Positions 11,147-47,205 of a stretch of DNA of 64,000 bases are shown one piece after another. The stretch spans positions 104,585 to 168,584 of the IMG/VR virus record IMGVR_UViG_3300009500_000011. One strand, written 5' to 3'. The position numbers and the translations under genes are program-made. Position 1 is the stretch's first letter. Every line of letters starts with the position of its first letter. The notes under the pieces were generated by a model that saw only the letters and a program-made list of their open reading frames with translations, ran no database searches and was not told where the DNA came from. Source of the stretch: a virus (Duplodnaviria > Heunggongvirae > Uroviricota > Caudoviricetes).

Positions 11147-11659
11147 ATGGATTTTTTAGTTGGCGATATATTAGTTTTAAAACAAGATGCTCTTGACCTT
11201 GAAGATAAAACTGGCAAAACAATTTTATATCCCGCAGGTTCCGAAGCTGAAATTATACAAATAAAAAATGAAAATGAATATCATCTGCAATTTCCAGATG
11301 CCAAAATATGGCCTCATGACTTGGCAACTTTATTGATTTTCTTTAATCGTAAAAAAGATGGTAAAAATGTTTATACTCGCCAGGTTTCAGAGTATGGTAC
11401 GCCACCAAAAGAGCTTGCTTTTTATATACCTAGAGAAGTTGATTGGCGTAAAAACTATAGGTATACTGTCAGAATTGAAGCAGAAGATTGTGGCTTTAAA
11501 AAATTGATTTGTCCTAGTTGTTTCAATGACCTGGGAGAAAATGGCGAACCAGATAATGAAGGTTTGCAAAAATGTCAAAAATGTGGTACAATGGTTCTCC
11601 CGATAGACCCATTAACATTCAAGTATCCACATGATGACGGAAATGAACACACAACTTAA
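11147..11659 (+). CDS. hypothetical protein with C-terminal zinc ribbon
   Basis: CPSC...CQKCG pair of CxxC motifs. Confidence 0.45.
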   Translation: MDFLVGDILVLKQDALDLEDKTGKTILYPAGSEAEIIQIKNENEYHLQFPDAKIWPHDLATLLIFFNRKKDGKNVYTRQVSEYGTPPKELAFYIPREVDWRKNYRYTVRIEAEDCGFKKLICPSCFNDLGENGEPDNEGLQKCQKCGTMVLPIDPLTFKYPHDDGNEHTT

Positions 11660-12935
11660 GAGTAATTCTCAAAAATTCTTAGAAGCAGCAAATTGGGCTC
11701 TTGTAAAAGAACGCTTTGGCGAAGATACAGGAGTTAATATTCGTCGCGCTTCTATAGATAATGTGCAAAATATTACGCTTTTCAATGGTTCAAAAGGTTT
11801 ACTTTTTGATGGATATTCGTTTCCTGAACAAGAACATCTTAAAGGCTTGATTGTTCACGAAGTATTAGGAAGCGCACATTCGGTTATAGCGGCATGTTTT
11901 CCTAAATTCTATAACTATGGCGAACCTGCTGAAAAACAAAAGCATCTTGAATACTTAAATGACGATTCTATGAGTGTGTTATTTGCTAAGAAAGAGGATG
12001 GAGTAAATATTCGTCCTTATTTCAATGCTGCAACAAATAGAGTTGAATTTGCTACGCGCGGAACCTTGCTTGTTGTTTCTGATATTGAAGAAACGTCTAA
12101 TCTTGATTATGGCGCAATGGCTCGTTCAATTGCAGAAGAAAAATATCCAATTCTTTTGGATGAGGAATTTGTAAAGAAATACTCTTGTATTTTTGAAATG
12201 ATTCATCCTGATTCCAAAATTCTTACGGATTATGGACAAAGAAAAGACCTTATTCTTCTGTCAGTATTTGATTTAGAAAATAACTGCTATGAATTTTCGC
12301 GTGAATGGGTAGCATCTTGGGCAAATATAATTGGGTTAAATTATGTTGAATATTGGTTTGACCAATATGCGCCTGTTTCTGAATTTTCTTCTTTAGTTGA
12401 AAAACTACTTAAAAAATGGAACGAAACGGATGTAGAAGGTTCTGTTGTTATATTTGTAAACTCTGAAGCAGAACCTGTATATCGTCTTAAAGTTAAAAAT
12501 GCTTATTATTTACAAATGCTTCGACTTGCAAAATTTTGCACTTTGAAGAATTTAGTCTCAATCATGGAAGAAAATAACTTTTCAAATTGGGAACAACTTC
12601 GTGCATATTTGTACGAAAGCCCTTCAATGAATGAAGAATTAGAAATGGCATATAAGGCTCATTTTGATGTATATGAAAATTGGTTAGCAAATCTTGAAAT
12701 CGAAAAACAAAATGTTTTAAAAGAATATCAAGAATTACCTTCTTTCGAATTACAAAAAGATTTTGCTTTATACATCTTAAAAGATGGCGCTTATCCATAC
12801 AATCCGCTATTCTTTGCTATTCGCAAATGGTTAGCAGAAGCCAAAAATCCTAATTTAGAACAATTCTTTGAAGAAAATGTTAAAGCAACAGTAATGTTGA
12901 AGAAAATCTATCCACTATCGGAAGTAGAGGAATAA
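11631..12935 (+). CDS. ATP-dependent RNA ligase (Rnl1-like)
   Basis: Covalent nucleotidyltransferase motifs: motif I KKEDGVN (T4 Rnl1 has KEDG), FEMIHP, motif IV-like VEGSVVIF, motif V-like RLKVKNAYY. Confidence 0.7.
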   Translation: MMTEMNTQLKSNSQKFLEAANWALVKERFGEDTGVNIRRASIDNVQNITLFNGSKGLLFDGYSFPEQEHLKGLIVHEVLGSAHSVIAACFPKFYNYGEPAEKQKHLEYLNDDSMSVLFAKKEDGVNIRPYFNAATNRVEFATRGTLLVVSDIEETSNLDYGAMARSIAEEKYPILLDEEFVKKYSCIFEMIHPDSKILTDYGQRKDLILLSVFDLENNCYEFSREWVASWANIIGLNYVEYWFDQYAPVSEFSSLVEKLLKKWNETDVEGSVVIFVNSEAEPVYRLKVKNAYYLQMLRLAKFCTLKNLVSIMEENNFSNWEQLRAYLYESPSMNEELEMAYKAHFDVYENWLANLEIEKQNVLKEYQELPSFELQKDFALYILKDGAYPYNPLFFAIRKWLAEAKNPNLEQFFEENVKATVMLKKIYPLSEVEE

Positions 12936-12936
12936 C

Positions 12937-13443
12937 ATGGGTTTATTTGATTATGTAATTTGTGATTATCCTTTACCTGATTCATATAAAGGGAGTATTA
13001 AGTTTACAACTAAAGACTTAAATTCTTTTATGAATACTTTTACTATTACTGAATCAGGTCAACTTTTAGAACACAAATTTCATTTTGAAGAAGTTCCTGA
13101 AGAAGAACGTCCTAAATTTAATACACCCGAATGGAATTCTGATAACGAAACAATTAAAACTTGGACACGCTTAATGGGTTCAAAGATTCAAGTATTTGAT
13201 GGCTTGGAACCCTACCTTTACACAGGTGCTGTTTGTTTTTACGGTTCAAATTTAGATAGTTGTAATTCGGATGGATATTATACTACAGAAAATGATGAAC
13301 CTTATGAATACAAAGAATACATTGCTTTGTTTAAAAATGGTATGTTAATTAACATTATTGAAAATAATGAAAAAGACAATGAATTTTTTACTCCAGAATG
13401 TTTTTTAACACAAAAACAGTATAAAGAAAAATATAATGAATGA
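12937..13443 (+). CDS. hypothetical protein
   Basis: Intact ORF between the RNA ligase and the Thg1-like gene. Confidence 0.45.
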   Translation: MGLFDYVICDYPLPDSYKGSIKFTTKDLNSFMNTFTITESGQLLEHKFHFEEVPEEERPKFNTPEWNSDNETIKTWTRLMGSKIQVFDGLEPYLYTGAVCFYGSNLDSCNSDGYYTTENDEPYEYKEYIALFKNGMLINIIENNEKDNEFFTPECFLTQKQYKEKYNE

Positions 13444-14197
13444 CTCGCTTGGCGACCGAATGAAAACATATTATGAAGATGTGACGCGGCATTACTTGCC
13501 TCGGCGAACTCATACAATTATTCGGTTAGATGGAAAATCTTTTCATACGTATACAAAAAAATTAGCAAGACCATTTGATGCTGGTTTGATTGAAGATATG
13601 CAAAAAACCACAATTCGACTTTGTGAGAATATTCAGGGCGTTGTTCTTGGTTATACGCAATCTGATGAAATATCTCTTGTTTTATGTGATTATAAAGAAA
13701 AAGAAACTGAATCCTTTTTTAAAGGTAATATTCAAAAAATTTGTTCAGTATCTGCAAGTATGGCTACTGCATTCTTCAATGCTTTTAGACAAGCCCGTAA
13801 TTTTGAAGGTGGTCCAGCATTTTTTGATGCTAGAGTATTTACTATTCCAGAAAAGGTAGAAGTTCTTAATTATCTTATTTGGAGACAAAAAGATGCAACA
13901 AGAAATTCTATTCAAATGGCCGCACAATCTGTTTATTCTCATAAAGAACTTAATAAAAAGAAGTGGTCTGATTTAAATGAAATGCTTTTTCAGAAAGGTA
14001 TTAATTTTAATGATTATTCTTCTTCTGAAAAACGTGGTTCTTTAATTGTGAAAGAATATTTTGAAGGGGAAGCCTATGATAAGCGTAAGCAAGAAAATGT
14101 TATAGTTACTCGGTCGCGTTGGATTGTAGAACCTGAAACACCTCTTTTTACTGCTGAAGAAAATAGAGATTTATTTGAAAGGTATTTATATAAATAA
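13436..14197 (+). CDS. tRNA-His guanylyltransferase (Thg1)-like protein, 3'-5' nucleotidyltransferase
   Basis: LGDRMK.YE....., IIRLDGKSFHTYTK, GYTQSDEISLVL. These are the hallmark Thg1/TLP motifs. Confidence 0.85.
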   Translation: MNDSLGDRMKTYYEDVTRHYLPRRTHTIIRLDGKSFHTYTKKLARPFDAGLIEDMQKTTIRLCENIQGVVLGYTQSDEISLVLCDYKEKETESFFKGNIQKICSVSASMATAFFNAFRQARNFEGGPAFFDARVFTIPEKVEVLNYLIWRQKDATRNSIQMAAQSVYSHKELNKKKWSDLNEMLFQKGINFNDYSSSEKRGSLIVKEYFEGEAYDKRKQENVIVTRSRWIVEPETPLFTAEENRDLFERYLYK

Positions 14198-14282
14198 ATT
14201 TAGTTATTTTCTGACTTCTTTTCATGTCGAATCGCGTACTCTATTGACATGAAGAAATTTCTCGGAAATTTTCCCTACAAAA

Positions 14283-14321
14283 AAGCCAACCATTTGTAAT
14301 AATAATGGGTGGCTTTTTGTT
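14283..14321 (+). terminator. intrinsic terminator after the Thg1-like gene
   Basis: AGCCAACCAT...ATGGGTGGCT followed by TTTTT. Confidence 0.6.
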
Positions 14322-14349
14322 TGAAAAACACTATTTATGATGGAGAGCA

Positions 14350-15051
14350 ATGTATATGCCAAAAAAACAATCTTCTCAAACACCTAGAAGAATTCCAACC
14401 ATAAGAACGGTACAATTTGAAGCCCAAACAATAAATCAAGAGAAGTTTGTAAAAAATATAGAAAGAAATGTTGTTTCATTCGGAATAGGTATACCAGGTT
14501 CAGGAAAAACGTATTTAGCATTAGCAACTGCTCTTAAAGCATTAGTTGAACAAAAATGTGAACGAGTTGTAATAACTAGACCAATGGTTGAAGCAGGTCC
14601 TTCTATCGGATTCCAACCTGGAAATGAAGAAGAAAAACTTGGAGTATATTTAAAACATATTTATGATATGATATATAAATTACTACCAAAAGTTTTGGCA
14701 GATGATTTGCTTGATTCAGGAAAAATATCAATTGGTGCTATTACATTTATGAGAGGAATGAATTTTGAAAACTCATATGTAATAATAGATGAAGCCGAAA
14801 ACTTAGACAAAAAATCATTTTATTTGTTATTAACAAGAATTTGTGAAGGGTCTAAAATGATTTTTTGTGGTGATACTGGCCAGGTTGATTTAAAAAATCC
14901 TAGTGAAAGCGGATTAAATGATGCAGTTTTAAAATTTCAAGGTAAAGAAAATTTTAGTGTAACTGAATTTACTATTGAAGATTGTCGCAGAAGTAAAGTT
15001 GTTATGGAAGTTATTAAAGCATATTTCCCTAACTCAACCAAGACAAAGTAA
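14350..15051 (+). CDS. phoH: PhoH-like ATPase
   Basis: Walker A GIPGSGKTYLALA, Walker B IIDEAENL, GDTGQVDL motif. Confidence 0.9.
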   Translation: MYMPKKQSSQTPRRIPTIRTVQFEAQTINQEKFVKNIERNVVSFGIGIPGSGKTYLALATALKALVEQKCERVVITRPMVEAGPSIGFQPGNEEEKLGVYLKHIYDMIYKLLPKVLADDLLDSGKISIGAITFMRGMNFENSYVIIDEAENLDKKSFYLLLTRICEGSKMIFCGDTGQVDLKNPSESGLNDAVLKFQGKENFSVTEFTIEDCRRSKVVMEVIKAYFPNSTKTK

Positions 15052-15102
15052 AACAAATTGCGTACTTAATTATGCAAACTTATTTTATGAGGCTTTTTTA
15101 GT

Positions 15103-16095
15103 ATGTTGTTTTTTGCAAATAAAATTAAAAAAATTGCATCAACCCCTTTATGGGCAAATGTTGTAAATTTAGATGACGGCTCTGGTCCTGTACAAGGGTT
15201 TTGGGTTGATTCAAGTTTGGGTATGCCATTCTTTTTAAGAAAATCCGACCATGTGATTTGGTTGCCTAAAACTTTACGTGGCAAAAAAATTGATTCTTTA
15301 ACACCAGAAGAATTACAAAATGTTCCGAAAGAAGATTCTGGAAAAGTTCATTATAAAAATTGGAAAGCAAATTCAGATAAAAGAAATATTGCCGCAAAAT
15401 TATTTAATGGATATGCTTTTACGGACGCTGGAATTCAATTAGTTCAAGGATTAAAAAAATTAGCAGATAAATATGAATTAGATGATGTTACAAATGTTCG
15501 TCTTGAACGTCGTCTTTCCATCAATCCTGGTCTTTTTGATAGACTTTTACAATGTAATAATCTTCAAGATGTTCAACGTCTTGGGCGTCTTATAGTAAGA
15601 AAATTTGTTTTCATTATTAAAAATATGAGTTTAACTGAACCTAAAATTGCCAAAAGATTAGATGCTGATTTTATGTATCAATACAAAAAAATTGAACCTC
15701 TTTTTGATATTGACCCGCTATCTATAGATGTAGAACTTCCTGAAACATTTGAAGAAAATGAAATTCCAGACCCACGTTTAGACCATGTTAAAGTTTTAAT
15801 GCAAAATTGTGAAGCAGAAATAGAACCAATGATGGATAATGACCTTCAGCTTTCTGCACCTCTCACTTGGCTAAAAGATGCTTCTAAAGTGCTTAAAAAA
15901 GCTCAAGATATTCAATCTGAAAATATAATGGAAGAAGTAAAATTTTATCTTATTTCAATGATTTTTTCTCTTCAAAAATTAGCAAAGGTTGCTCCTGCTG
16001 ACCATCCTCTTGTAGGTAAAGTCGAGCAAATTTTGAATGCTAAAAGTCTAAGTGCCATTTTAATGGCACTTGCAAAGACTGACCCGCAAATGTAA
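15103..16095 (+). CDS. hypothetical protein
   Basis: 330-aa intact ORF; no motif recognised. Confidence 0.45.
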   Translation: MLFFANKIKKIASTPLWANVVNLDDGSGPVQGFWVDSSLGMPFFLRKSDHVIWLPKTLRGKKIDSLTPEELQNVPKEDSGKVHYKNWKANSDKRNIAAKLFNGYAFTDAGIQLVQGLKKLADKYELDDVTNVRLERRLSINPGLFDRLLQCNNLQDVQRLGRLIVRKFVFIIKNMSLTEPKIAKRLDADFMYQYKKIEPLFDIDPLSIDVELPETFEENEIPDPRLDHVKVLMQNCEAEIEPMMDNDLQLSAPLTWLKDASKVLKKAQDIQSENIMEEVKFYLISMIFSLQKLAKVAPADHPLVGKVEQILNAKSLSAILMALAKTDPQM

Positions 16096-17137: not shown

Positions 17138-17224
17138 GGAAGTATCGCATAGCGGCGATTGCATCTGACTGTAAATCAGACGCGCGAAAGCGCCTCGGAG
17201 GTTCGAGTCCTTCTACTTCCACCA
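17138..17224 (+). tRNA. tRNA-Tyr(GTA), type II
   Basis: Acceptor GGAAGTA/TACTTCC, loop CTGTAAA. Variable arm GCGC-GAAA-GCGC. T arm GGAGG-TTCGAGT-CCTTC, CCA. Confidence 0.9.
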
Positions 17225-17235: not shown

Positions 17236-17371
17236 TTTTGAGTTGCGCTAGAATAAAGTTACTTCGTCTGTAAAACGAGGAATCCGGGTTCGAGTCCCGG
17301 TCGGAATCTAACGATTTCGGTACTTTAATCGGTAAAATCCTAAACACTTTGTTCGCTACCTTCGCTCAAAA
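17236..17371 (+). ncRNA. Y-RNA-like / YrlA-like element with tRNA-mimic module, embedded in the tRNA array
   Basis: TTTTGAG/CTCAAAA terminal helix. TTGCG...AAAGT pairs with ACTTT-gtt-CGC, followed by TACCTTCG, the same 3' box as element B. TTACTTCGT box. Anticodon-like arm CTTCGT-CTGTAAA-ACGAGG. Perfect T arm CCGGG-TTCGAGT-CCCGG. Confidence 0.55.
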
Positions 17372-17399: not shown

Positions 17400-17474
17400 G
17401 CCGAACTAGTATAATGGCTATTACATCTGTTTCGTAATCAGAGAATCTCAGTTCAATTCTGGGGTTCGGCCCCA
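17400..17474 (+). tRNA. tRNA-Thr(CGT)
   Basis: Acceptor GCCGAAC/GTTCGGC, loop TTCGTAA with a U-U at the loop-closing pair. T arm CTCAG-TTCAATT-CTGGG, CCA. Confidence 0.7.
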
Positions 17475-25197: not shown

Positions 25198-25274
25198 GGG
25201 ATAGTAGGAGAATTGGCATATCTACCACGTTTAGACCGTGGGTTCTGTGGGTTCAAGTCCCACCTATCCTACCA
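25198..25274 (+). tRNA. type I (5-nt variable loop) tRNA with anticodon TAG
   Basis: Acceptor GGGATAG/CTATCCT, perfect arm CCACG-TTTAGAC-CGTGG, variable GTTCT, T arm GTGGG-TTCAAGT-CCCAC, A73, CCA. Confidence 0.65.
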
Positions 25275-25282
25275 AATATTTA

Positions 25283-25306
25283 AAAGACCTGATATCAGGT
25301 CTTTTA
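25283..25306 (+). terminator. intrinsic terminator after the tRNA pair
   Basis: AAAAGACCTGAT/ATCAGGTCTTTT perfect palindrome. Confidence 0.6.
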
Positions 25307-25329
25307 TCATTCAAAAAGTTTAATTTAAT

Positions 25330-25473
25330 ATGGCAAGAAAAAACATAGATGATATTTATAACGAAAACAATTATGTTCAGAAAAATTATACAGGCAGCGG
25401 TTTTGCCCTTGGTTTAGCCTTGGCGGCGACATGTTTGATAGCGTTGCACCTTCTGGGAGTTAAATTGATTTAA
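25330..25473 (+). CDS. candidate 47-aa membrane-anchored peptide
   Basis: C-terminal hydrophobic stretch GFALGLALAATCLIALHLLGV. Confidence 0.3.
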   Translation: MARKNIDDIYNENNYVQKNYTGSGFALGLALAATCLIALHLLGVKLI

Positions 25474-25587
25474 TATGGTAAGATTAAAATTAAAATGGAA
25501 AATAAAAAAAGATGGATATGGTTTAAAATCATCTTGGAAAAAGAAAAACAAACATAAAAAATCTTTTATTATCTGGAAATAAAAATA

Positions 25588-26253
25588 ATGCCTTTAAAAA
25601 TCGTGTGTATTTCTGATACTCACAATTCATTAAATCAACTTGAACTTAATGGATTAAAAATGCCAGAAGCAGATGTTCTTATACATGCTGGTGATTTAAC
25701 ATTTAAAGGCCAACTTCCAGAAATTTCAAAAGCAAATTATCATTTAGGGAAAATTAAACATAAGTATAAACATGTGGTTTTTGTTCCAGGAAATCATGAT
25801 TTTCTTTTTCAAAAAGATGAAGCAATTGCAAGGGCTGTATTGTCTAATGCAACCGTATTAATTGACCAACCTTTAGAAATTGAAGGTTATAAATTTTACG
25901 GTAGTCCTTGGCAACCCTGGTATCAAGATTGGGCATTTAATTTTAAAAAATATTCAGCAGGAGGAAAAGAACAGTCAATTCGTATTTGGGGAGCTATTCC
26001 TGAAGAGACTGATATTTTAATTACTCATGTCCCGCCATATATGATGATGGATAAAACTGAATATGGTGAAAATATTGGTGATGCTTGGCTTGCTAAACGT
26101 TTGAAAGAACTTCCTAATCTTAAACTTCATGTTTTTGGGCATGTTCATGAAAGATACGGTAAAGTAGAAGCAAAAATTACCTTTGTTAATGCAGCTTCTA
26201 TGAACCGTAGATATAGCATTGTGAATCCACCAATTGTTATAGATTTGCCTTAA
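25588..26253 (+). CDS. metallophosphoesterase (calcineurin-like)
   Basis: Motifs ISDTHN, GDLTFKG, GNHD, GHVHE. Confidence 0.85.
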   Translation: MPLKIVCISDTHNSLNQLELNGLKMPEADVLIHAGDLTFKGQLPEISKANYHLGKIKHKYKHVVFVPGNHDFLFQKDEAIARAVLSNATVLIDQPLEIEGYKFYGSPWQPWYQDWAFNFKKYSAGGKEQSIRIWGAIPEETDILITHVPPYMMMDKTEYGENIGDAWLAKRLKELPNLKLHVFGHVHERYGKVEAKITFVNAASMNRRYSIVNPPIVIDLP

Positions 26254-26262
26254 AATAAGAAT

Positions 26263-26742
26263 ATGGATAACAAAGATTTGGTAGTTCATTGTAAGATAAA
26301 ACCTTACGACGTTTATATTGGGCGAAGCAAAGACCCTAAAAAAGGTAAGTGGGGGAATCCTTATTCTCATGAAGAAGGAACCCTTGCCGAATATAAAGTG
26401 GCAACCCGAGAAGAAGCGGTAGAATGTTTTCGTAAATATTTATTAAAAAATGTCGATTTAATGAAACAAATTTTAACCTTAAAAGGTAAAGTTTTGGGAT
26501 GCTGGTGTAAGCCTAAATCTTGTCATGGAGATATTATTGTAGAATTTATTAATAAAATTGACAATGGTGAATCCTTGTGCGATAATTGTGAAGAGGAAGA
26601 TTGTTATTATTGCAATCTTGGTTGTCCTTGGTGTGGACATGCACACAGTTTAGATGGTTCATGTAAAAATTGTTGGTTAGAAGCATGTCAAATAAATGAT
26701 GAAGAAATGCTTCTAAGAATAAAAGATTTAATACCTAAATAA
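26263..26742 (+). CDS. DUF4326-like protein with C-terminal Cys cluster
   Basis: YIGR....WGNPY...R..A...F..YL......L.GKVLGCWCKPKSCHGD pattern. This is the DUF4326 signature as I recall it. Confidence 0.6.
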   Translation: MDNKDLVVHCKIKPYDVYIGRSKDPKKGKWGNPYSHEEGTLAEYKVATREEAVECFRKYLLKNVDLMKQILTLKGKVLGCWCKPKSCHGDIIVEFINKIDNGESLCDNCEEEDCYYCNLGCPWCGHAHSLDGSCKNCWLEACQINDEEMLLRIKDLIPK

Positions 26743-26746
26743 AATT

Positions 26747-26833
26747 GGCCGAATGGCGGAATTGGTAGACGCGGCAGACTCAAAATCTGTTGTCCGAAAG
26801 GGCGTGTGGGTTCAAGTCCCACTTTGGCCACCA
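26747..26833 (+). tRNA. tRNA-Leu(CAA), type II
   Basis: Acceptor GGCCGAA/TTTGGCC, arm GCAGA-CTCAAAA-TCTGT, variable arm GTCC-GAAA-GGGC, T arm GTGGG-TTCAAGT-CCCAC, A73, CCA. Confidence 0.9.
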
Positions 26834-26862
26834 CAAATTGAATTCTTTAAGAAGAGGAAAAA

Positions 26863-27309
26863 GTGATTAACTTTATTAAAAAGATTTTTAAACTAGGTAG
26901 TACCCAACCGAAGAATATTTCGTCAAATTCAAAACCATCGACAGCGAGTAATTCAATTAATTACAATGTTCATCCCATTGTGATTGAGCGACCTCTTCCG
27001 ACTCCTAAGCCGGTGTATTACGATGATACATCTTCGCAATTAACGAATATGTTGTTAATGGAAGAGATTATTGATTCAAGTTATCAACCTACCACAACGG
27101 TAATTGTAGAACCACCAGCACCTGTTGATAATTACAATAACTATTCGGCACCAGAACCTTCGCCGTCTTCGTCGCCAAGTCCATCATATGATAGCGGTTC
27201 ATCATATTCAGATAGTAGTTATTCGTCGTCTTCTTCATGGTCTTCTTCGTCATATGATAGCGGTAGTAGTAGTTCGTCTTCATCATATGATAGTGGTGGT
27301 GGTTGGTAA
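26863..27309 (+). CDS. Ser/Pro-rich low-complexity protein with SYDSG repeats
   Basis: GTG start. The C-terminal third is about 60 percent Ser, with three SYDSG units. Confidence 0.4.
   Translation: MINFIKKIFKLGSTQPKNISSNSKPSTASNSINYNVHPIVIERPLPTPKPVYYDDTSSQLTNMLLMEEIIDSSYQPTTTVIVEPPAPVDNYNNYSAPEPSPSSSPSPSYDSGSSYSDSSYSSSSSWSSSSYDSGSSSSSSSYDSGGGW
27184..27297 (+). repeat. three copies of a 15-nt unit TCATATGATAG(C/T)GGT within Ser-rich coding sequence
   Basis: Copies at 27184-98, 27250-64 and 27283-97. Each encodes SYDSG. Confidence 0.7.
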
Positions 27310-27320
27310 ATAATAATAAA

Positions 27321-27403
27321 GGGCAAGTGGTGGAACTGGTATACACGTATGTCTAAGAAGCATATGCGAAAGCATGTGGGTTCGAGTCCCACCTTGCCCA
27401 CCA
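27321..27403 (+). tRNA. tRNA-Leu(AAG), type II, A34
   Basis: Acceptor GGGCAAG/CTTGCCC, arm TATGT-CTAAGAA-GCATA, variable arm TGC-GAAA-GCA, T arm GTGGG-TTCGAGT-CCCAC, A73, CCA. Confidence 0.75.
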
Positions 27404-27428
27404 TAATTTAAGGGAATATAAATCTTTG

Positions 27429-27881
27429 ATGTTAGATGATTTAATTACGCCACTTAATTCTTTTCAAGAATTAAAAAATATTCTTGAAGAAAATCCTAGA
27501 CTACATTATAGCAAAGGTTATGCAGGTAATATTTCTACGATACCTGGTCCTGTAATTCTTTATCCAATTATTGGTGTGGTTAGAAATAAGGCTAATTGGC
27601 GTTTGATAAATGGCAAAATTTATGGCGGAGAAATTTTAATAAAAGTTTTTGCAGAAGTCGATTATACAACTACTGTTTATCCTTTAGATTATTTACTTGA
27701 TGATTTAAATGAACTTACTCTTGAAGAATTAGCACGACCTATTTTGATTTCTCCATGTAAGAGAAATCAAAATATCGAAGAAGTCACTCTATATGCAGAG
27801 TGTGCAGGAATTTTAACTCGACCAGATGAATTTGATACCAACCTATATTTAGGTTTTGGAAAATTGCCAGAAATCATATAA
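27429..27881 (+). CDS. hypothetical protein
   Basis: Intact ORF in the tiling (ATG one codon after the TTG at 27426). Confidence 0.4.
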   Translation: MLDDLITPLNSFQELKNILEENPRLHYSKGYAGNISTIPGPVILYPIIGVVRNKANWRLINGKIYGGEILIKVFAEVDYTTTVYPLDYLLDDLNELTLEELARPILISPCKRNQNIEEVTLYAECAGILTRPDEFDTNLYLGFGKLPEII

Positions 27882-27889
27882 TGAAATTT

Positions 27890-27979
27890 GGGGATATGGT
27901 GAAATTGGTCAGACACAACAGGCTTAAACCCTGTCGGGCGTTATATCCCATGTCGGTTCGAATCCGACTATCCCTACCA
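27890..27979 (+). tRNA. tRNA-Leu(TAA), type II
   Basis: Acceptor GGGGATA/TATCCCT, arm ACAGG-CTTAAAC-CCTGT, long variable arm, T arm GTCGG-TTCGAAT-CCGAC, A73, CCA. Confidence 0.85.
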
Positions 27980-27987
27980 ATTAAATA

Positions 27988-28155
27988 ATGAAATGCATTG
28001 AAAACACTAAATCCTGTAGTAATATAATTTTTACTTGCAGGATTTGTAATAATAAGAATTGTTTTATTCATTCTAATTTGCTTCATTGGTCAACAATGAA
28101 AGCGATTTGTTTGCATTGTCAAAAGGAAAAGAAGAGTAATGATGCACAATTATAA
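27988..28155 (+). CDS. candidate 55-aa zinc-ribbon protein
   Basis: C..C/CRIC...CLHC motifs; below the ORF-track cutoff. Confidence 0.3.
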   Translation: MKCIENTKSCSNIIFTCRICNNKNCFIHSNLLHWSTMKAICLHCQKEKKSNDAQL

Positions 28156-28615
28156 AGTGTCAGAAAAATATTGGGCGCAATTTGATACTGATGAGAAACT
28201 TATAGAATTTGCGTATAGTCGTCTTTTAAAATATTCTTTAAAAGATTTAAATAAATTAGCGCGCGAATGGTTATCCGAGATTGGTGCCATTGAAGGTAAA
28301 GAATTTTATATAGAATATATTATTGAAAATAATATTGATACTGATGATGTTGAATATCATGAACTAGATACACTTGATAAATGGGATTTAGAAGATTACA
28401 TCGTTTCAGATATGTATTTTTATACACCTTCTGATGTTGTTCTTTGGTTAAAAGATACAAATTATTTTAATCTTGATAAAGAAATTCTTCGTAGTGAACT
28501 TATTGCTTTTGTAGAAAATACTTTTAGCGATTTTGATGATTGGCCAGATGAACAATCTATAATTGAAGTGTTCAAGAACCCTAATCAATTAGAATTTAAT
28601 TTTGATGAAATATAA
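28139..28615 (+). CDS. hypothetical acidic protein
   Basis: Intact ORF in the tiling. Confidence 0.4.
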   Translation: MMHNYKVSEKYWAQFDTDEKLIEFAYSRLLKYSLKDLNKLAREWLSEIGAIEGKEFYIEYIIENNIDTDDVEYHELDTLDKWDLEDYIVSDMYFYTPSDVVLWLKDTNYFNLDKEILRSELIAFVENTFSDFDDWPDEQSIIEVFKNPNQLEFNFDEI

Positions 28616-28862
28616 AACCATAAAATACTTTGATTGTCAAGATATGCCTGAAAAAGTAAAAGAGGCATTTTTTAATACTTTTGAAATTTTTGAAAAATAT
28701 TATCCAAATAATATCATTATTGAATGGTTTGAAGAATATTCAAAAAGTGGATTTAAAAAACAATTTCCAAATAATGCTGATAATTTAAACAAAGTAAATC
28801 TTTGGTTGAAAAAAAATGGAGCATTACCTGGAGAATTAGTATTAATTAAACATTGGTGGTAA
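28602..28862 (+). CDS. hypothetical protein
   Basis: Intact ORF in the tiling. Confidence 0.4.
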   Translation: MMKYKTIKYFDCQDMPEKVKEAFFNTFEIFEKYYPNNIIIEWFEEYSKSGFKKQFPNNADNLNKVNLWLKKNGALPGELVLIKHWW

Positions 28863-28864
28863 AT

Positions 28865-29404
28865 ATGTCTAAAGAAATTTTAACCGTGTATTTAGCCGGT
28901 CGTATAGATGGTATTAGTGCAGATAGAGCAACAAATTGGCGCGATGAAGCATTAAAGTTACTTGCAAAAAATAAATTTGCAGGTCTTTGTCCTATTACTC
29001 ATGGTGTTGATTTAGAACTTAACTCTGGTGTTCCCGCCGATTTGACTAAACCAGAAATACATAATAAAATTTTTGAAATAGATTTAGATTTAATTTTTAG
29101 AAGCGATGCAGTTATTGCAAATATGGAATATATATCGTTTGGAACCGCACAAGAAATATTTTATGCAGATAAAATATTAAATATTCCTGTAATTGCATTT
29201 AATAATAAAAGTTGCACTTCTGCTTTTCTTTATGCAACAACTTACAAAATAGTTGACACATTAGAAGATGCTATTGAAGTGTTAAAAACATTAAATAAAA
29301 AATCAGAAATGTTAACAATTGGTGGTTTAAGAGAAGTTCTTTGGAGTACAAGAGAGACATACGATATTCCTTTAGAAAAACTAAAAAAACGTAATTCTTT
29401 TTAA
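28865..29404 (+). CDS. nucleoside 2-deoxyribosyltransferase-like protein
   Basis: N-terminal VYLAGRIDG....W motif typical of the NDT-like fold. By-eye call. Confidence 0.45.
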   Translation: MSKEILTVYLAGRIDGISADRATNWRDEALKLLAKNKFAGLCPITHGVDLELNSGVPADLTKPEIHNKIFEIDLDLIFRSDAVIANMEYISFGTAQEIFYADKILNIPVIAFNNKSCTSAFLYATTYKIVDTLEDAIEVLKTLNKKSEMLTIGGLREVLWSTRETYDIPLEKLKKRNSF

Positions 29405-29408
29405 AAAT

Positions 29409-29609
29409 ATGGGTTGTTTTGATGACTTTCAAGCATATTATAATGCTATATGTCCTAACTGTGACCCCGATGATATTCATGAAAATTTCGCATCTTTGCA
29501 TCAACGATGTTTTGAATATTACACATCCTTAATAATTATGCGTTTAGATTATGGCCTTCATATGAATATCCTAAATCTTATACTAGGATTAGAAGATTTA
29601 GGATATTAG
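29409..29609 (+). CDS. hypothetical small protein
   Basis: 66-aa ORF. Confidence 0.3.
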   Translation: MGCFDDFQAYYNAICPNCDPDDIHENFASLHQRCFEYYTSLIIMRLDYGLHMNILNLILGLEDLGY

Positions 29610-29622
29610 GAACAATTCTCGT

Positions 29623-29651: not shown

Positions 29652-29682
29652 ATAAGGGTAATATAAAAAAAGGAAAAGAAAA

Positions 29683-45030: not shown

Positions 45031-45258
45031 AAATTTGAGTTGCGTTAGAGTACGGTTACTTCTTAATTGACATATACCTAATGTCCCACCTCAATAAAGG
45101 AGTAAAATCTTTTATTGGGCTAGTCACCTGAGTCGTGGTGAGACGCATTGTGCAAATGTTAGTGGAGGCTCGTAAAATAAGCCTAGAACTAAAAATTCTT
45201 AGACTTAAGATGTAAAAATCAAAAGTCGGTCCCGTACTTGCCCTCTTCTCTCAAATTT
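45031..45258 (+). ncRNA. Y-RNA-like element A (upstream of Ro60 gene)
   Basis: Terminal helix AAATTTGAG/CTCAAATTT. 5' TTGCG..AGTACGG pairs with 3' CCGTACT. Conserved TTACTTCTT box. Same architecture as elements B, C and the one at 17236. Confidence 0.55.
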
Positions 45259-45275
45259 ATTTTAAAAATTAAAAA

Positions 45276-45346
45276 CTTGGGTTGCGACAGATTACAGATA
45301 CTTCTTATATGGAATAAAAAAGCTGTATTCGCTACCTTCTCCCGAG
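45276..45346 (+). ncRNA. Y-RNA-like element B (minimal hairpin version)
   Basis: CTTGGG/CCCGAG terminal helix. Internal loop tt / TACCTTCT. GCGACAG pairs with CTGT-att-CGC. ATACTTCTT box in the apical region. Confidence 0.55.
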
Positions 45347-45362
45347 TATAAATTTTATAATA

Positions 45363-45456
45363 TTTAAATTGCGTTAATTACAGATACTTCTTGTATATTG
45401 GTTCGAGTCCATTAAGTGTAGTCGGTACACAACTGTAGTTGTTCCATTCGTTTAAA
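45363..45456 (+). ncRNA. Y-RNA-like element C with tRNA-like T arm
   Basis: ATTTAAA/TTTAAAT terminal helix, TTGCG...TTACAG pairing with CTGTAG, ATACTTCTT box, TGG-TTCGAGT-CCA T-arm mimic, GTGTA-gtcgg-TACAC hairpin. Confidence 0.5.
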
Positions 45457-45464
45457 TTTTATTT

Positions 45465-45498: not shown

Positions 45499-45519
45499 GT
45501 TGTCATAAAGGAAAAAAGA

Positions 45520-47205
45520 ATGAAATACAATACTAAAACAGTAAATGCTGGTCCAGGAACAAAAATGATAAATCTTGCAGGCGGAGAAGCTTTTAAAGTT
45601 GATAATCGTACTGCATTATATTTAACTTCTGCAACTTCTTTAGGTGGCGGTCAAGGAAATAAATATTATGTTTCTGCAAATCAAGAATACAAAAATATTC
45701 TTGAACTAATTGAAAAGGTTTCCGCTCAAGACCCAGAATTTATTTTCCAATTGGCTGCATATTGTCGTCAAGATTTATACCTTCGTAGTATTCCAACGGT
45801 ATTATTTATCGAAGGTATTCGTGCAATGCATAAGCAAAAAAAGGCCAATGCACCATATCCAGTAGATGCATCTAAGTATGCAAATGCTATTTTTGGTCGT
45901 GCTGATGAAATTGTTGAAGCAGTTGCATATTGGCTTGGAGTTGAAGGCCATCACAAATTGCCTTCCCCTCTTCGTAAATCTTTGACCATTGCTTTAAATT
46001 CATTTGATGAATACCGCTTGCTTAAATATAATCAAGAAGATAAGCAAGTTACATTTAAAGATATTGTTCGTCTTGTGCATCCAGAACCAAAAACTGATGT
46101 GCAAAGTGCAATTTTCAAATACTTCATCAAGGATGAAATCAGTCCAGAATTAATGCCAAAGGCAACTGCCCGCAAGGCTTTGCTTTCACGTACTCAATTT
46201 GATGAAGAAGCACAACGCTTGATGAGAGATTCATCTGCTACTTGGGAAACTGTAATTGCTAAATTCGGTTCGACTAAAGAAATTTGGGAAGCAGTTATTC
46301 CAAATATGGGATACATGGCTTTATTACGTAATCTTAATAATTTTCTTAAAAAAGAAGTAGATTTAGATTTAGTAATTCCTCGCCTTGTGAATCCGCAAGA
46401 AATTCGTAAAAGCAAGCAATTGCCTTTCCGTTTTTACACAGCAATGAAACAACTTGGTGTAGAAGATAACAATAAGAATTCTACGATGACATATTATGGA
46501 TATTCCGATTCAGTAAAAACAGCATTTGAAAAATGGCGTAATGTAAATTCTAGCGATGGAATTTCTCGTTTACGTAATGCTCTTGGTGTTGCTATGAATA
46601 TTGCAGTAGAAAATGTTCCTCACCTTTCAGGTCGTACCGTTGTTGCGGCAGACCTTTCTGGTTCTATGAGTCAACCTCTTAATAACAAATCAAATGTAAC
46701 TTATCGTGAAATCGCTTGTATTATGGCTGGTATTGCTGGTTCAATAGCACCAGATAATGTAATTTGTGGATTTGGTTGTTCATTTGCTGTTGCTAAAAAA
46801 GGCAAAGATATTCTTGAAACTGCAAATAATATTGATAAATTAAATGTTGGAATGTCAACGGATGCATGGCGTATTCTTGATTACTTGCTTACAAACAAAA
46901 TTTTTGTAGATAGAGTCATGTATTTTACAGATACACAATGTTATAATTCATATGGGGGCGCAAATTTAAACGAACTTTGGAAAAAATACAAAGTTCTTTG
47001 CCAATCAACTGGTAAAAAAGTTCCTGTTCTTTATGAAGTAAATCTTGCAGGTGGTAATACATCTAGTTTTAATTCTGAACAAAGAGTTGCTACCATTGGT
47101 GGATGGTCTGAAAGAATTTTTGATTTAATTACTACTTATGAAACTGACCCTCGTCAAGCAATAAGTAAAATTAAAGAAAAATATTCAGATTTAGTATCTG
47201 TTTAA
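45520..47205 (+). CDS. rsr: Ro60-related protein (TROVE domain + vWA), Rsr-like
   Basis: Start trimmed to MKYNTKT behind AAAGGAAAAAAG. TROVE-like helical repeat region (FIFQLAAYCRQDLYLRSIP). C-terminal MIDAS AADLSGSMS. Confidence 0.85.
   Translation: MKYNTKTVNAGPGTKMINLAGGEAFKVDNRTALYLTSATSLGGGQGNKYYVSANQEYKNILELIEKVSAQDPEFIFQLAAYCRQDLYLRSIPTVLFIEGIRAMHKQKKANAPYPVDASKYANAIFGRADEIVEAVAYWLGVEGHHKLPSPLRKSLTIALNSFDEYRLLKYNQEDKQVTFKDIVRLVHPEPKTDVQSAIFKYFIKDEISPELMPKATARKALLSRTQFDEEAQRLMRDSSATWETVIAKFGSTKEIWEAVIPNMGYMALLRNLNNFLKKEVDLDLVIPRLVNPQEIRKSKQLPFRFYTAMKQLGVEDNNKNSTMTYYGYSDSVKTAFEKWRNVNSSDGISRLRNALGVAMNIAVENVPHLSGRTVVAADLSGSMSQPLNNKSNVTYREIACIMAGIAGSIAPDNVICGFGCSFAVAKKGKDILETANNIDKLNVGMSTDAWRILDYLLTNKIFVDRVMYFTDTQCYNSYGGANLNELWKKYKVLCQSTGKKVPVLYEVNLAGGNTSSFNSEQRVATIGGWSERIFDLITTYETDPRQAISKIKEKYSDLVSV

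What the first reader, a model, noticed from the sequence alone, without database searches (positions are those of the whole stretch)
17236..17371. Fourth Y-RNA-like / tRNA-mimic element hidden inside the tRNA array, 28 kb from the Ro60 gene
A 136-nt element sits between tRNA-Tyr and tRNA-Thr. It is not a cloverleaf tRNA.
- It shares the family signature seen next to the Ro60 gene. The terminal helix is TTTTGAG/CTCAAAA. TTGCG is followed by AAAGT, which pairs with ACTTT-gtt-CGC. The 3' box is TACCTTCG and the loop box is TTACTTCGT.
- Its interior contains an anticodon-like arm (CTTCGT-CTGTAAA-ACGAGG) and a perfect T arm (CCGGG-TTCGAGT-CCCGG).
This is the YrlA-type layout of a Ro-binding stem plus a tRNA mimic. 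It would be co-transcribed and processed with genuine tRNAs.
Basis: seen in the sequence. Interest (0 to 1): 0.65.

Follow-up and report, generated by a model that had tools for sequence, protein, structure and literature searches.

The report
Phage Y-RNA-like tRNA mimic in tRNA array
A 136-base gene sitting among a phage's tRNA genes is not a tRNA. It is a structured RNA of the kind that partners the Ro60 protein, a stalk carrying a tRNA-shaped head, and it has moved 28 kb away from the Ro60 gene that its relatives sit next to.

Summary
The family signature TTGCG-N8-20-TACTTCKT occurs exactly four times in the window against 0.04 expected: here and three times just upstream of the TROVE/Ro60 gene.

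An 8-bp closed acceptor-like hairpin and a D arm follow the T arm. The head is therefore a complete tRNA body with a stalk inserted at the D/anticodon hinge.

Eight related uncultivated phage lineages carry 2-7 family members directly upstream of Ro60. In two of them (L009, L031) the orthologue of this element is the last RNA before Ro60. In the four orthologues 96.8% of cells are paired and 18 of 39 pairs show compensatory changes. Across 27 family members the figure is 33 of 39.

ARAGORN calls a 67-nt "tRNA-Tyr" inside the element. That cloverleaf scores below Rfam's tRNA threshold, is worth -9 against -30 kcal/mol, and is not called in the orthologues.

The family resembles YrlA: relatives reach 26-37 bits and this element 15.5, against a threshold of 69. 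It fails Rfam's cut-off and lacks the GNCGAA motif.

Verdict: a real ncRNA gene and a new variant of the known phage and bacterial Y-RNA kind. Ro60 binding and processing are inferred, not shown.

The parts
17236..17242 (+). H1 5' strand (TTTTGAG) of the 7-bp terminal helix
   Evidence: It pairs with 17365-17371. Across 27 family members 7 of 7 pairs show compensatory changes and 97% of cells are paired.
17243..17250 (+). 5' box TTGCGCTA, the 5' side of the internal loop between H1 and H2. TTGC is kept in all 27 aligned members; the L031 orthologue has TTCC.
   Evidence: TTGC is in all 27 members aligned. L031, which was not in that alignment, has TTCC.
17251..17259 (+). H2 5' strand (GAATAAAGT) of a 9-bp helix
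   Evidence: It pairs with 17346-17354 (MFE fold). 5 of 9 pairs are compensatory among the four orthologues and 9 of 9 across the family. In Rfam alignments of relatives, H2 aligns to the outer helix of the YrlA model.
17260..17283 (+). TA, then the anticodon-like (V) hairpin CTTCGT-CTGTAAA-ACGAGG, then the 3-nt linker AAT. The family box TACTTC forms the 5' strand of the hairpin.
   Evidence: The stem is invariant in all four orthologues while other helices vary. The loop is CUGUAAA here, which is identical to the neighbouring tRNA-Tyr anticodon loop. It is CUGUUAA in L031 and CUGAUAAA in L009. Rfam's tRNA model aligns this hairpin as an anticodon arm with a 4-nt variable loop.
17284..17300 (+). 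T arm CCGGG-TTCGAGT-CCCGG
   Evidence: Pairs 49-65 and 51-63 co-vary in orthologues and family, with 97.6% of cells paired.
17301..17320 (+). Closed acceptor-like (AS) hairpin TCGGAATC-TAAC-GATTTCGG: 7 bp plus an N73:N-1 pair. There is no CCA; positions 74-76 read UAA.
   Evidence: It matches the AS hairpin of the Rfam YrlA model. 6 of 8 pairs are compensatory among orthologues and 8 of 8 across the family. Five relatives encode N73-CCA at this position.
17321..17338 (+). U8-A9-like TA, then D arm CTTT-AATCGGTA-AAAT with A14, A15, G18 G19 and A21 equivalents
   Evidence: It aligns to the D arm of the Rfam YrlA model. The 24-nt stretch GTACTTTAATCGGTAAAATCCTAA is identical in L009. L031 has GTAT/ATAC, which restores pair 10-25.
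17339..17345 (+). Linker CCTAAAC, the A-rich tract just 5' of the H2 3' strand
   Evidence: An A-rich tract occupies this position in all family members and in the Rfam YrlA consensus.
17346..17354 (+). H2 3' strand ACTTTGTTC
17355..17364 (+). 3' box GCTACCTTCG, the pyrimidine-rich 3' side of the internal loop
   Evidence: CGCTACCTTC is identical in copy B at 45330. A CTTCT, CTCCT or CTACT box occupies this position in nearly all family members.
17365..17371 (+). H1 3' strand CTCAAAA
17138..17224 (+). Flanking tRNA-Tyr(GTA) with encoded CCA. An 11-nt spacer separates it from the element.
   Evidence: Rfam tRNA 56.1 bits.
17400..17474 (+). Flanking tRNA-Thr(CGT), 28 nt downstream of the element
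   Evidence: 53.2 bits.
45033..45256 (+). Family copy A: a long insert and no clear tRNA-like head
   Evidence: Model R1 scores 27.3 bits, E 2e-5.
45275..45347 (+). Family copy B: stalk only, 73 nt
   Evidence: R1 37.5 bits. R2 78 bits.
45362..45457 (+). Family copy C: stalk plus T arm plus D arm, with no acceptor hairpin
   Evidence: R1 34.1 bits. GGTTCGAGTCC at 45400.
45517..47205 (+). Ro60/TROVE protein gene, the presumed protein partner
   Evidence: Pfam TROVE 4e-32 plus vWA_Ro60. Best PDB match is Thermus phage phiLo Ro60 (9KOP), 8e-34. A terminator hairpin at 45465-45493 separates the gene from the RNA array.

Best explanation
17236-17371 is a gene for a ~136-nt non-coding RNA of a phage-specific Y-RNA-like family related to YrlA.

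It folds into a stalk and a head. The stalk is a 7-bp terminal helix, a conserved asymmetric internal loop (UUGCGCUA / GCUACCUUCG) and a 9-bp helix. The head is a five-way junction that reproduces a whole tRNA body:
- an anticodon-like hairpin
- a short variable linker
- a T arm
- an acceptor stem closed by a tetraloop
- U8-A9
- a D arm

In effect the head is a tRNA whose acceptor end is closed. It is opened at the D/anticodon hinge, where the stalk is inserted.

Proposed working, with the status of each step:
1. It is transcribed as part of the polycistronic tRNA precursor. (Inferred.)
2. It is freed by the same RNase P and 3'-end cuts that release tRNA-Tyr and tRNA-Thr, then trimmed back to the terminal helix. 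(Inferred.)
3. The stalk binds the phage Ro60 ring. (Inferred from genomic association.)
4. The tRNA-shaped head recruits a tRNA-recognising partner, so the RNA tethers or gates Ro60. In this RNA-repair-rich phage the likely context is surveillance, repair or decay of damaged tRNA-like substrates during infection. (Inferred from the YrlA, Yrn1 and phiLo precedents.)

What is shown here, by computation only: the family exists, the fold is supported, the family is linked to Ro60 loci, and this copy has been relocated.
For: Family signature: 4 occurrences against 0.04 expected.

Fold: the MFE contains H1, H2, the V hairpin, the T arm and the AS hairpin. The Y-like structure evaluates at -30.3 kcal/mol (-32.3 without the D arm) and the MFE is -36.1 kcal/mol.

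Orthologues:
- L019/L020 carry the element at the same place in the tRNA array.
- L009 9731-9868 and L031 1594-1730 carry it immediately upstream of Ro60.

Covariation:
- Four orthologues: 96.8% of cells paired, 18 of 39 pairs changed on both sides, score 0.632 against 0.244 in shuffles and <=0.125 when partners are slid.
- 27 family members: 91.9% paired against 64% in shuffles, 33 of 39 pairs compensatory.
- RNAalifold on 11 stalk-only members, an alignment not fitted to any model: 11 of 13 pairs compensatory.

Association with Ro60: in 232 kb searched, all 27 hits at E < 1e-3 lie within about 1.3 kb upstream of a Ro60 gene on its strand, except this copy and its L019 twin. L028 and L031 add more.

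Independent model: a stalk model built without any orthologue of this element recovers the L009 and L031 orthologues over their full span (48.4 and 40.1 bits).

Resemblance to YrlA: T arm, AS hairpin and D arm align to model positions 30-81. Relatives score 26-37 bits, E down to 4e-5, some over the full model length.

Sequence features read directly: U8-A9, A14, G18 G19, an A15:U48 pair, G53-C61 and a UUCGAGU T loop.

Context: Rnl1-type ligase, Thg1-like protein, PhoH, RlaP, phosphoesterases and a 3'-5' exoribonuclease.

Precedents:
- YrlA is a tRNA mimic bound by Rsr (PMC4201824; bioRxiv 10.1101/312249).
- Phage phiLo Ro60 binds phage-encoded Y-like RNAs and host PNPase (PMC12135203).
Against: - No experiment shows that the RNA exists, what its ends are, or that it binds Ro60.
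- The element fails Rfam's YrlA threshold: 15.5 against 69 bits. No family member reaches it.
- The GNCGAAN0-1G motif that marks YrlA's Ro-binding strand is absent. UACUUC stands in its place.
- The copy is 28 kb from Ro60, outside the 4-kb neighbourhood in which nearly all best matches lay in Chen 2014.
- The stalk-only model R2 aligns the window copy only partly (18.3 bits, E 0.06).
- Orthologues represent three independent lineages only. The CM-based alignments lean towards the modelled structure.
- ARAGORN calls an overlapping tRNA-Tyr.
Confidence: 0.8

Rival explanations
1. It is a degenerate or unusual tRNA-Tyr gene or pseudogene. ARAGORN's 67-nt call at 17242-17308 is correct and the flanks are spacer.
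For: - ARAGORN calls tRNA-Tyr(GTA) here and in L019/L020.
- The Rfam tRNA model gives 24.8 bits, local E 0.0055.
- The hairpin loop CUGUAAA is identical to that of the adjacent tRNA-Tyr.
- The T arm is perfect.
- The position is inside a tRNA array, directly after tRNA-Tyr.
Against: - The score is below Rfam's gathering score of 29.
- The acceptor stem has 2 mismatches in 7, the D arm has a 3-nt loop, and there is no CCA, although the phage tRNAs read here (Asp, Ile, Tyr, Thr) encode CCA.
- The cloverleaf is worth -9.0 kcal/mol against -30.3 for the Y-like fold.
- Its 5' acceptor strand is the family box GTTGCG, which is also present in copies with no tRNA part.
- The 63 nt outside the call are conserved and co-vary.
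- In L009 the loop has 8 nt and in L031 it reads GUU.
- ARAGORN calls no tRNA in either orthologue or in any other family member.
Confidence: 0.04
2. The RNA family is real, but Ro60 is a neighbour and not the partner. The RNAs act on their own as tRNA-shaped decoys, processing scaffolds, or regulators of the phage RNA-repair or tRNA machinery. This copy simply sits with its functional peers, the tRNAs.
For: - The YrlA Ro-binding motif is absent.
- The arrays form their own promoter-to-terminator units separate from Ro60.
- This copy functions, if at all, 28 kb from Ro60.
- Five of 14 tRNA-like relatives encode N73-CCA in register (P about 1e-6), which points to tRNA-type end processing and not to a closed Y RNA.
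- The RNA-repair genes lie next to the tRNA array.
Against: - Every lineage of this Ro60 clade with upstream sequence available carries the family directly upstream of Ro60 on the same strand.
- No member was found elsewhere in 232 kb except this copy and its L019 twin.
- The same adjacency logic identified Y RNAs that were later shown to bind Rsr (PMC4201824).
- Phage phiLo Ro60 binds RNAs encoded upstream of its own gene (PMC12135203).
Confidence: 0.1
3. It is a transposed, decaying copy: a Y-RNA pseudogene with no present function, carried along in the tRNA array.
For: - The location is lineage-specific. Syntenic tRNA arrays in L021-L024 lack it.
- It has no CCA, unlike its L009 orthologue.
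- Only close relatives (L019/L020, 97% identical) share the position, so constraint at this site is barely testable.
Against: - All six helices are intact.
- The window's Ro60 locus has no other copy of this full-tRNA type, so this is the only one in the window.
- Of the 4 substitutions relative to L019, the 2 in stems preserve pairing (G-C to G.U and U.G to C-G) and the other 2 fall in a loop and a linker.
- The V arm and D arm are identical to L009 although the Ro60 proteins have diverged to 59% identity.
Confidence: 0.06

Closest known systems
YrlA (Rfam RF02553): bacterial and mycobacteriophage Y-RNA-like tRNA mimics (Chen et al. 2014, PMC4201824; Wang et al. 2018, bioRxiv 10.1101/312249)
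   Same: - Modular: a stem joined to a tRNA-like domain ordered T arm, closed acceptor hairpin, UA, D arm.
- Conserved elbow nucleotides.
- An A-rich tract before the 3' strand of the stem.
- Family members are encoded just upstream of Ro60 on its strand.
- Several paralogues per locus, some lacking parts of the tRNA domain, as YrlB does.
   Different: - It fails the Rfam threshold (15.5 bits here, at most 37 in relatives, against 69).
- No GNCGAAN0-1G motif; UACUUC stands there instead.
- An extra outer helix H1 with its own conserved loop boxes (UUGCNNUA / GCNNCCUUCU).
- A separate anticodon-like hairpin, so the stalk leaves from the D/anticodon hinge and does not replace the anticodon stem.
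- This copy is 28 kb from Ro60, inside a tRNA array.
- Arrays reach 7 copies.
Deinococcus radiodurans Yrn1 (Y RNA of the Rsr-PNPase RYPER complex)
   Same: A Ro60-bound stem plus a tRNA-like part that includes a potential anticodon arm (PMC4201824). It is the functional model of a tether or gate.
   Different: In Yrn1 the T and D elements have a different order and orientation, the loop has 6 nt, and the stem has a metazoan-like Ro-binding helix. No sequence relationship was found here.
Thermus phage phiLo Yrl1/Yrl2 with phiLo Ro60 (PMC12135203)
   Same: Phage-encoded Y-like RNAs upstream of a phage Ro60. phiLo Ro60 is the best solved-structure match of the window's Ro60 (8e-34). Ro60, RNA and host PNPase were shown to form a complex.
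   Different: The phiLo RNAs were identified by a CGAA bulge motif, and no tRNA-like head is described for them. The two Ro60 proteins are only 26% identical.
Circularly permuted tRNA genes (Cyanidioschyzon merolae; Soma et al. 2007, as cited in bioRxiv 10.1101/312249) and the dimeric-tRNA origin model for YrlA (Sim & Wolin 2018, same source)
   Same: The order is anticodon arm, T arm, acceptor 3' strand, (CCA), spacer, acceptor 5' strand, D arm. That is the order obtained by reading across the junction of two tandem copies of one tRNA. Relatives even keep N73-CCA in register.
   Different: There is no evidence of circularisation or splicing, and the stalk carries family-specific boxes that are not a splice motif. 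The window copy has UAA where CCA would be.

Membership tests
YrlA (Rfam RF02553) | Score at or above the curated gathering threshold (69 bits) | tested here: not met
   15.5 bits, E 1.8, model positions 30-81 only. There is no YrlA hit at gathering in the window or in 7 related loci. Relatives reach 26.5-36.7 bits.
YrlA (Rfam RF02553) | GNCGAAN0-1G motif on the 5' strand of the Ro60-binding stem (Chen 2014) | tested here: not met
   In cmscan alignments of relatives the motif position is occupied by (A/U)UACUUC. No CGAA occurs in the 5' stalk of the element.
YrlA (Rfam RF02553) | tRNA-like domain in the order T arm, closed acceptor-like stem-loop, UA, D arm | tested here: met
   17284-17338 aligns to YrlA model positions 30-81. 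The helices co-vary.
YrlA (Rfam RF02553) | Conserved tertiary-contact nucleotides: T-loop UUCRA, D-loop GG, a pyrimidine at the last variable-loop position pairing with position 15 | tested here: met
   Read from the sequence: UUCGAGU, AAUCGGUA, and A15 with U48 (AAU linker) in the window, L009 and L031.
YrlA (Rfam RF02553) | Encoded within about 4 kb of Ro60 on the same strand | tested here: not met
   The strand is the same but the distance is 28.1 kb. The feature is met by paralogues A-C and by the orthologues in L009 and L031.
YrlA (Rfam RF02553) | Bound by Ro60/Rsr; modified by TruB and DusA | not testable with these tools
   This needs immunoprecipitation or EMSA, and modification mapping.
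Canonical tRNA (Rfam RF00005) | Score at or above the gathering threshold (29 bits) | tested here: not met
   24.8 bits for 17242-17308. It is absent from the gathering-level scan.
Canonical tRNA (Rfam RF00005) | A 7-bp acceptor stem formed by the 5' and 3' ends, a normal D arm, and a stable cloverleaf | tested here: not met
   5 of 7 acceptor pairs, a D loop of 3 nt, and a cloverleaf at -9.0 against -30.3 kcal/mol for the alternative. The orthologues are not called by ARAGORN.
Canonical tRNA (Rfam RF00005) | Called by a tRNA gene finder | tested here: inconclusive
   ARAGORN calls tRNA-Tyr(GTA) at 17242-17308 in the window and in L019/L020 but in no other lineage. tRNAscan-SE was not available.
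Circularly permuted tRNA gene | The 3' half lies upstream of the 5' half, with the acceptor strands joined by a short linker | tested here: met
   The order is V/anticodon arm, T arm, acceptor 3' strand, 4-nt loop, acceptor 5' strand, D arm.
Circularly permuted tRNA gene | Processed through a circular intermediate into a functional, CCA-ended, chargeable tRNA | not testable with these tools
   No CCA is encoded here, although 5 of 14 relatives encode it. The anticodon-like loop differs among orthologues (GUA; GUU; 8 nt), which argues against a fixed decoding role.

The most novel reading that the evidence does not exclude
This type of the family would be a complete, permuted tRNA derived from a tandem tRNA dimer and grafted onto a Ro60-binding stalk.

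Its anticodon-like loop imitates GUN-anticodon tRNAs: CUGUAAA (Tyr) here and CUGUUAA (Asn) in L031. Its acceptor loop is opened in some lineages by RNase P and 3' trimming to expose an encoded CCA.

The phage would use it as bait. Either it intercepts host anticodon nucleases or tRNA-modifying enzymes that recognise UGU-type anticodon loops, or it delivers cleaved tRNAs to the Ro60-exonuclease or ligase repair machinery.

Its placement in the tRNA operon would then ensure expression in step with the tRNAs it protects.
Probability: 0.12. Interest if true: 0.85.

Novelty: new variant of a known kind. Interest (0 to 1): 0.55.

Why it matters
Y RNAs are the obligate partners of Ro60. What their tRNA-like domains bind, and where they came from, are open questions.

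This phage clade offers a natural series on one conserved stalk:
- no head
- T plus D arms only
- a full tRNA body with an anticodon-like arm
- versions with an encoded CCA

The full-body members have the gene order expected from the proposed origin of YrlA in tandem tRNA transcripts. That makes the idea, and the search for the head's binding partner, more tractable.

Two practical points follow. Y-RNA genes can lie far from Ro60, inside tRNA arrays, so adjacency-based searches miss them. And tRNA finders may label them as tRNAs, as ARAGORN does here with "tRNA-Tyr".

The family also adds a Ro60 RNP to the RNA-repair toolkit of large tRNA-rich phages.

Tried and rejected
- IMG/VR scan with TTGCG..TACTTC..CGCTACCTTC: 6 loci, all chance matches with no helices and no tRNAs.
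- IMG/VR scan with the 18-nt D-arm string: 3 chance matches inside coding regions.
- JGI metagenome scan with a pattern specific to this element's type: 0 hits.
- Ro60 protein against IMG/VR: a single-protein query found nothing. A profile query found one 194-kb contig of the L025 lineage.
- Ro60 profile against GTDB genomes: none. Against JGI metagenomes: only two contigs already known.
- Anchor protein 15103-16095 against IMG/VR: none.
- blastn of the element against 50,697 annotated phages: no match. The window itself matches only a tRNA-Asn of S-CAM3.
- The stalk-only model R2 recovered the L009 and L031 orthologues in full but aligned the window copy only over its first 72 nt (18.3 bits).
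- MAFFT alone misaligned the heads of distant members, so CM-based alignments were used, with the caveat that they lean towards the model.
- Promoter-like hits inside the element (TTAATA-16-TAGAAT) and over the start of tRNA-Thr were judged spurious, since TAGAAT is part of the conserved 5' box region.
- I considered a recent origin from the adjacent tRNA-Tyr. The anticodon and T loops are identical, but the stems and the D arm differ, and the orthologues sit at Ro60. I rejected it as a recent event.
- A paper search to document RNase Z's preference for U74 in CCA-less precursors did not yield a citable passage. That idea rests on memory only.
Full report
**1. The observation**

The sequence at 17236-17371 reads exactly as described: TTTTGAG-TTGCGCTA-GAATAAAGT-TA-CTTCGT-CTGTAAA-ACGAGG-AAT-CCGGG-TTCGAGT-CCCGG-TCGGAATC-TAAC-GATTTCGG-TA-CTTT-AATCGGTA-AAAT-CCTAAAC-ACTTTGTTC-GCTACCTTCG-CTCAAAA.

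It lies on the + strand between tRNA-Tyr(GTA) at 17138-17224 and tRNA-Thr(CGT) at 17400-17474. These belong to a window that holds 32 ARAGORN tRNA calls.

A TROVE/Ro60 ORF lies at 45439-47205 (Pfam TROVE 4e-32 plus vWA_Ro60). Its probable start is the ATG at 45517, 28.1 kb downstream.

The combined signature TTGCG-N8-20-TACTTCKT occurs four times in the window, all on the + strand: 17243, 45040, 45282 and 45369. The expectation is 0.04, and no shuffle out of 100 reaches four. The claim of a fourth copy is correct and is not chance.

**2.

After the T arm comes an 8-bp hairpin, TCGGAATC/GATTTCGG, closed by TAAC. It is followed by TA and a D-arm-like hairpin, CTTT-AATCGGTA-AAAT.

Rfam's YrlA model aligns this stretch (17283-17338) to its T arm, acceptor-like stem-loop and D arm, model positions 30-81. 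The score is only 15.5 bits, E 1.8.

The AAAGT/ACTTT helix is really 9 bp long: GAATAAAGT/ACTTTGTTC. The minimum-free-energy fold (-36.1 kcal/mol, z = -2.2) contains the terminal helix, this 9-bp helix, the anticodon-like hairpin, the T arm and the acceptor-like hairpin.

The tRNA tertiary-contact positions are in place: U8-A9, A14, G18 G19, A21, an A15:U48 pair, G53-C61 and the UUCGAGU loop.

The head is therefore a whole tRNA body. Its acceptor end is closed by a loop, and the stalk enters and leaves at the hinge between the D stem and the anticodon-like stem.

**3. The family and its link to Ro60**

The window's Ro60 has a clade of relatives at 49-94% identity in public assemblies. Everything else is at most 37% identical. 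No cultured phage exceeds 30%.

I fetched contigs for these lineages. Every contig that includes sequence upstream of Ro60 carries 2-7 family members there. They are on the Ro60 strand and usually sit between a promoter-like site and a terminator hairpin that precedes Ro60.

Members share these features:
- a 7-bp terminal helix
- a 5' box (G)TTGCNNAG
- a second helix
- the box (A/T)TACTTC
- an A-rich tract
- a pyrimidine-rich 3' box (..CTTCT, ..CTCCT or ..CTACT)

Their inserts vary:
- nothing (66-75 nt)
- T arm plus D arm
- T arm, acceptor hairpin and D arm
- long unrelated inserts

In the window, the array at 45033-45457 follows a promoter-like site (44905-44933) and a tRNA-like leader (44941-45017). 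It ends at a terminator (45465-45493).

**4. Orthologues of this copy**

L019 and L020 have flanking proteins 96% identical to the window's. They keep the element between tRNA-Tyr and tRNA-Thr with four substitutions:
- two in stems, both preserving pairing (G-C to G.U and U.G to C-G)
- one in the acceptor loop
- one in a linker

L009 (Ro60 59% identical) and L031 (51%) carry clear orthologues. There they are the last RNA before the terminator and Ro60: L009 9731-9868 and L031 1594-1730.

Syntenic tRNA arrays in more distant relatives (L021-L024) contain no family member. The Ro60-adjacent position is therefore probably ancestral. The tRNA-array position is a relocation specific to the window's lineage.

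**5. Covariation**

On the four orthologues, 96.8% of cells pair. 18 of 39 pairs change on both sides. The covariation score is 0.632, against 0.244 +/- 0.048 in column shuffles (0 of 500 reach it) and at most 0.125 when partners are slid by 1-3 columns.

The acceptor-like hairpin is almost completely rewritten between lineages while all 8 pairs stay paired. H1 and H2 each have 5 compensatory pairs. The D stem gains a G-C at pair 10-25 in L031.

The anticodon-like stem never varies, so covariation says nothing about it. Its sequence and the 24-nt D-arm stretch are identical between the window and L009. That argues for sequence-specific recognition.

A covariance model from three orthologues retrieves 27 family members at E < 1e-3 from 180 kb. 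On that alignment 91.9% of cells pair (64% in shuffles) and 33 of 39 pairs are compensatory. This alignment is fitted to the model, which inflates pairing somewhat.

RNAalifold on a plain MAFFT alignment of 11 stalk-only members gives 11 of 13 pairs with compensatory changes. A stalk model built without any orthologue of this element recovers the L009 and L031 orthologues in full.

**6. Is it just a tRNA?**

The call is weak for these reasons:
- Rfam's tRNA model gives 24.8 bits, below the gathering score of 29. It shows two acceptor mismatches and a 3-nt D loop.
- The cloverleaf evaluates at -9.0 kcal/mol, against -30.3 for the Y-like fold.
- Its 5' acceptor strand is the family box GTTGCG, which is also found in members with no tRNA part.
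- There is no CCA, although the phage tRNAs read here encode it.
- The loop reads GUA in the window, GUU in L031, and has 8 nt in L009.
- ARAGORN calls no tRNA in any other family member.

Real tRNAs match the family model only weakly. They score at most 17.8 bits over the anticodon-arm plus T-arm segment, or as tRNA dimers. Chen et al. 2014 warned about the dimer artefact.

**7. Relation to YrlA**

What it works like: YrlA. It has a stalk plus a tRNA mimic in the order T arm, acceptor hairpin, D arm, and it is encoded with Ro60 (PMC4201824; bioRxiv 10.1101/312249).

Family relatives give sub-threshold but non-random YrlA scores in a 12-kb search: 36.7, 30.7, 29.4 and 26.5 bits, E from 4e-5 to 0.04. 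In these alignments the family's H2 falls on the model's outer helix and the A-rich tract on the model's aaAaAc.

Membership is not met on three counts:
- No member reaches 69 bits.
- The GNCGAAN0-1G motif is replaced by UACUUC.
- This copy violates the 4-kb adjacency.

There are also additions: an outer helix with its own loop boxes, and a separate anticodon-like hairpin. I therefore file it as a new variant of the Y-RNA kind and not as a YrlA member.

**8. A feature of the wider family**

In 5 of 14 members that have an 8-nt acceptor 3' strand, the loop begins with CCA. This gives acceptor (7 bp), N73 and CCA in exact tRNA register (binomial P about 1e-6). The window copy has C73-UAA and L019 has C73-UAG.

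The order anticodon arm, T arm, acceptor 3' strand, CCA, short spacer, acceptor 5' strand, UA, D arm is what the junction of two tandem copies of one tRNA looks like. This fits the dimeric-tRNA origin proposed for YrlA (cited in bioRxiv 10.1101/312249).

[quoted passage not shown] Whether the window RNA is opened in this way is unknown.

**9. Mechanism (inferred)**

The element starts 11 nt after the CCA of tRNA-Tyr and ends 28 nt before tRNA-Thr. No terminator and no credible promoter lies between. It is most simply read as part of the tRNA precursor, released by the cuts that mature its neighbours.

At Ro60 loci the arrays are separate transcription units, so moving one member into another highly expressed ncRNA operon should cost nothing.

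Surrounding genes are rich in RNA repair and turnover functions:
- Rnl1-type ligase (11631-12935)
- Thg1-like protein (13436-14197)
- PhoH
- RlaP
- three metallophosphoesterases
- an Rv2179c-like 3'-5' exoribonuclease

Relatives carry RtcB and RNA ligase near Ro60.

By analogy with Rsr-Yrn1-PNPase and with phiLo Ro60-Yrl-PNPase (PMC12135203), the RNA probably tethers or gates the phage Ro60. Its tRNA-shaped head would recruit a tRNA-recognising factor. None of this is shown here.

**10. Novelty and limits**

Phage Y-like RNAs next to Ro60 are known: 22 phages in Chen 2014, and phiLo in 2025. I found no paper describing a Y-like RNA inside a phage tRNA array, this box architecture, or CCA-bearing versions. 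The library searched is incomplete.

The evidence is entirely computational. It rests on three independent lineages for this type of element, and hosts are unknown. Apart from one 194-kb IMG/VR contig of the L025 lineage and two JGI metagenome contigs, one cut off just upstream of Ro60 and one within it, the clade was not found in IMG/VR, GTDB genomes or JGI metagenome contigs.

Noticed in passing
window 44941-45017 (+): A tRNA-like element (Rfam tRNA 32 bits, above threshold, but not called by ARAGORN). It lies directly after a promoter-like site and directly before Y-like copy A. Its 'anticodon' loop has 8 nt (9 nt in L007) and it encodes G-CCA. It could be a processing handle for the Y-RNA array or an odd decoder.
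   Followed up: partly
window 51187-51263 (+): A D-armless tRNA-like gene with a good acceptor stem and T arm, a long variable arm, the loop UUCCUAA and an encoded CCA. It has its own promoter-like TTGAAT-17-TATAAT. Rfam tRNA scores 27.9 bits, just under threshold, and ARAGORN misses it.
   Followed up: partly
window 18948-19021 (+); L019 14896-14969: ARAGORN reports a tRNA of unknown identity with a four-base anticodon (atcg). Rfam tRNA scores 35.2 bits. It is conserved in the 96%-identical relative.
   Followed up: no
L012 16009-16083; L013 6685-6761 and 6763-6837: Related phages carry tRNAs with a CUA anticodon (amber-suppressor type, labelled 'Pyl' by ARAGORN), two in tandem in L013. This is a possible sign of stop-codon reassignment in part of this clade.
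   Followed up: no
L009 9798-9817; L025 5775-5797; L012 4025-4044 and 4196-4217; L013 915-934: Five of 14 tRNA-like family members encode N73-CCA in exact tRNA register inside the acceptor-like loop (P about 1e-6). Most CCA-less members have U at position 74. This suggests two processing classes, as seen for tRNA genes.
   Followed up: partly
window 11631-16095, 24447-32001: A dense RNA-repair and RNA-turnover gene set flanks the tRNA arrays: Rnl1-type ligase, Thg1-like 3'-5' polymerase, PhoH, Rv2179c-like exoribonuclease, two metallophosphoesterases and RlaP.
   Followed up: partly
L019 8195-9949 and 13342-14556; L007 10868-12001: Compared with the window, the close relative has a PhoH gene of 584 aa with a faint Hom_end_hint hit (233 aa in the window), which may be an intein. 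It also has IS605-type OrfB/TnpB genes inserted near the tRNA array and downstream of Ro60.
   Followed up: no
L013 490-1500; L011 5714-6693: Arrays of 6-7 tandem Y-like RNA genes lie upstream of a single Ro60 gene. That is far more paralogues per locus than described for bacterial rsr loci.
   Followed up: partly
window 17355-17364, 45331-45340; L009 9716-area and 9851-9861: The family's 3' box (ACCUUCU, CCUCCUUCU) resembles the anti-Shine-Dalgarno core of 16S rRNA. The box UACUUC also occurs in the 3' acceptor strand of the neighbouring tRNA-Tyr. Both are unexplained and may be coincidence.
   Followed up: no
window 51671-52426; L007, L009, L010, L012, L026: A papain-family (Peptidase_C1) gene and a metallophosphoesterase gene recur a few kb downstream of Ro60 in most lineages of this clade. 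This suggests a conserved module.
   Followed up: no
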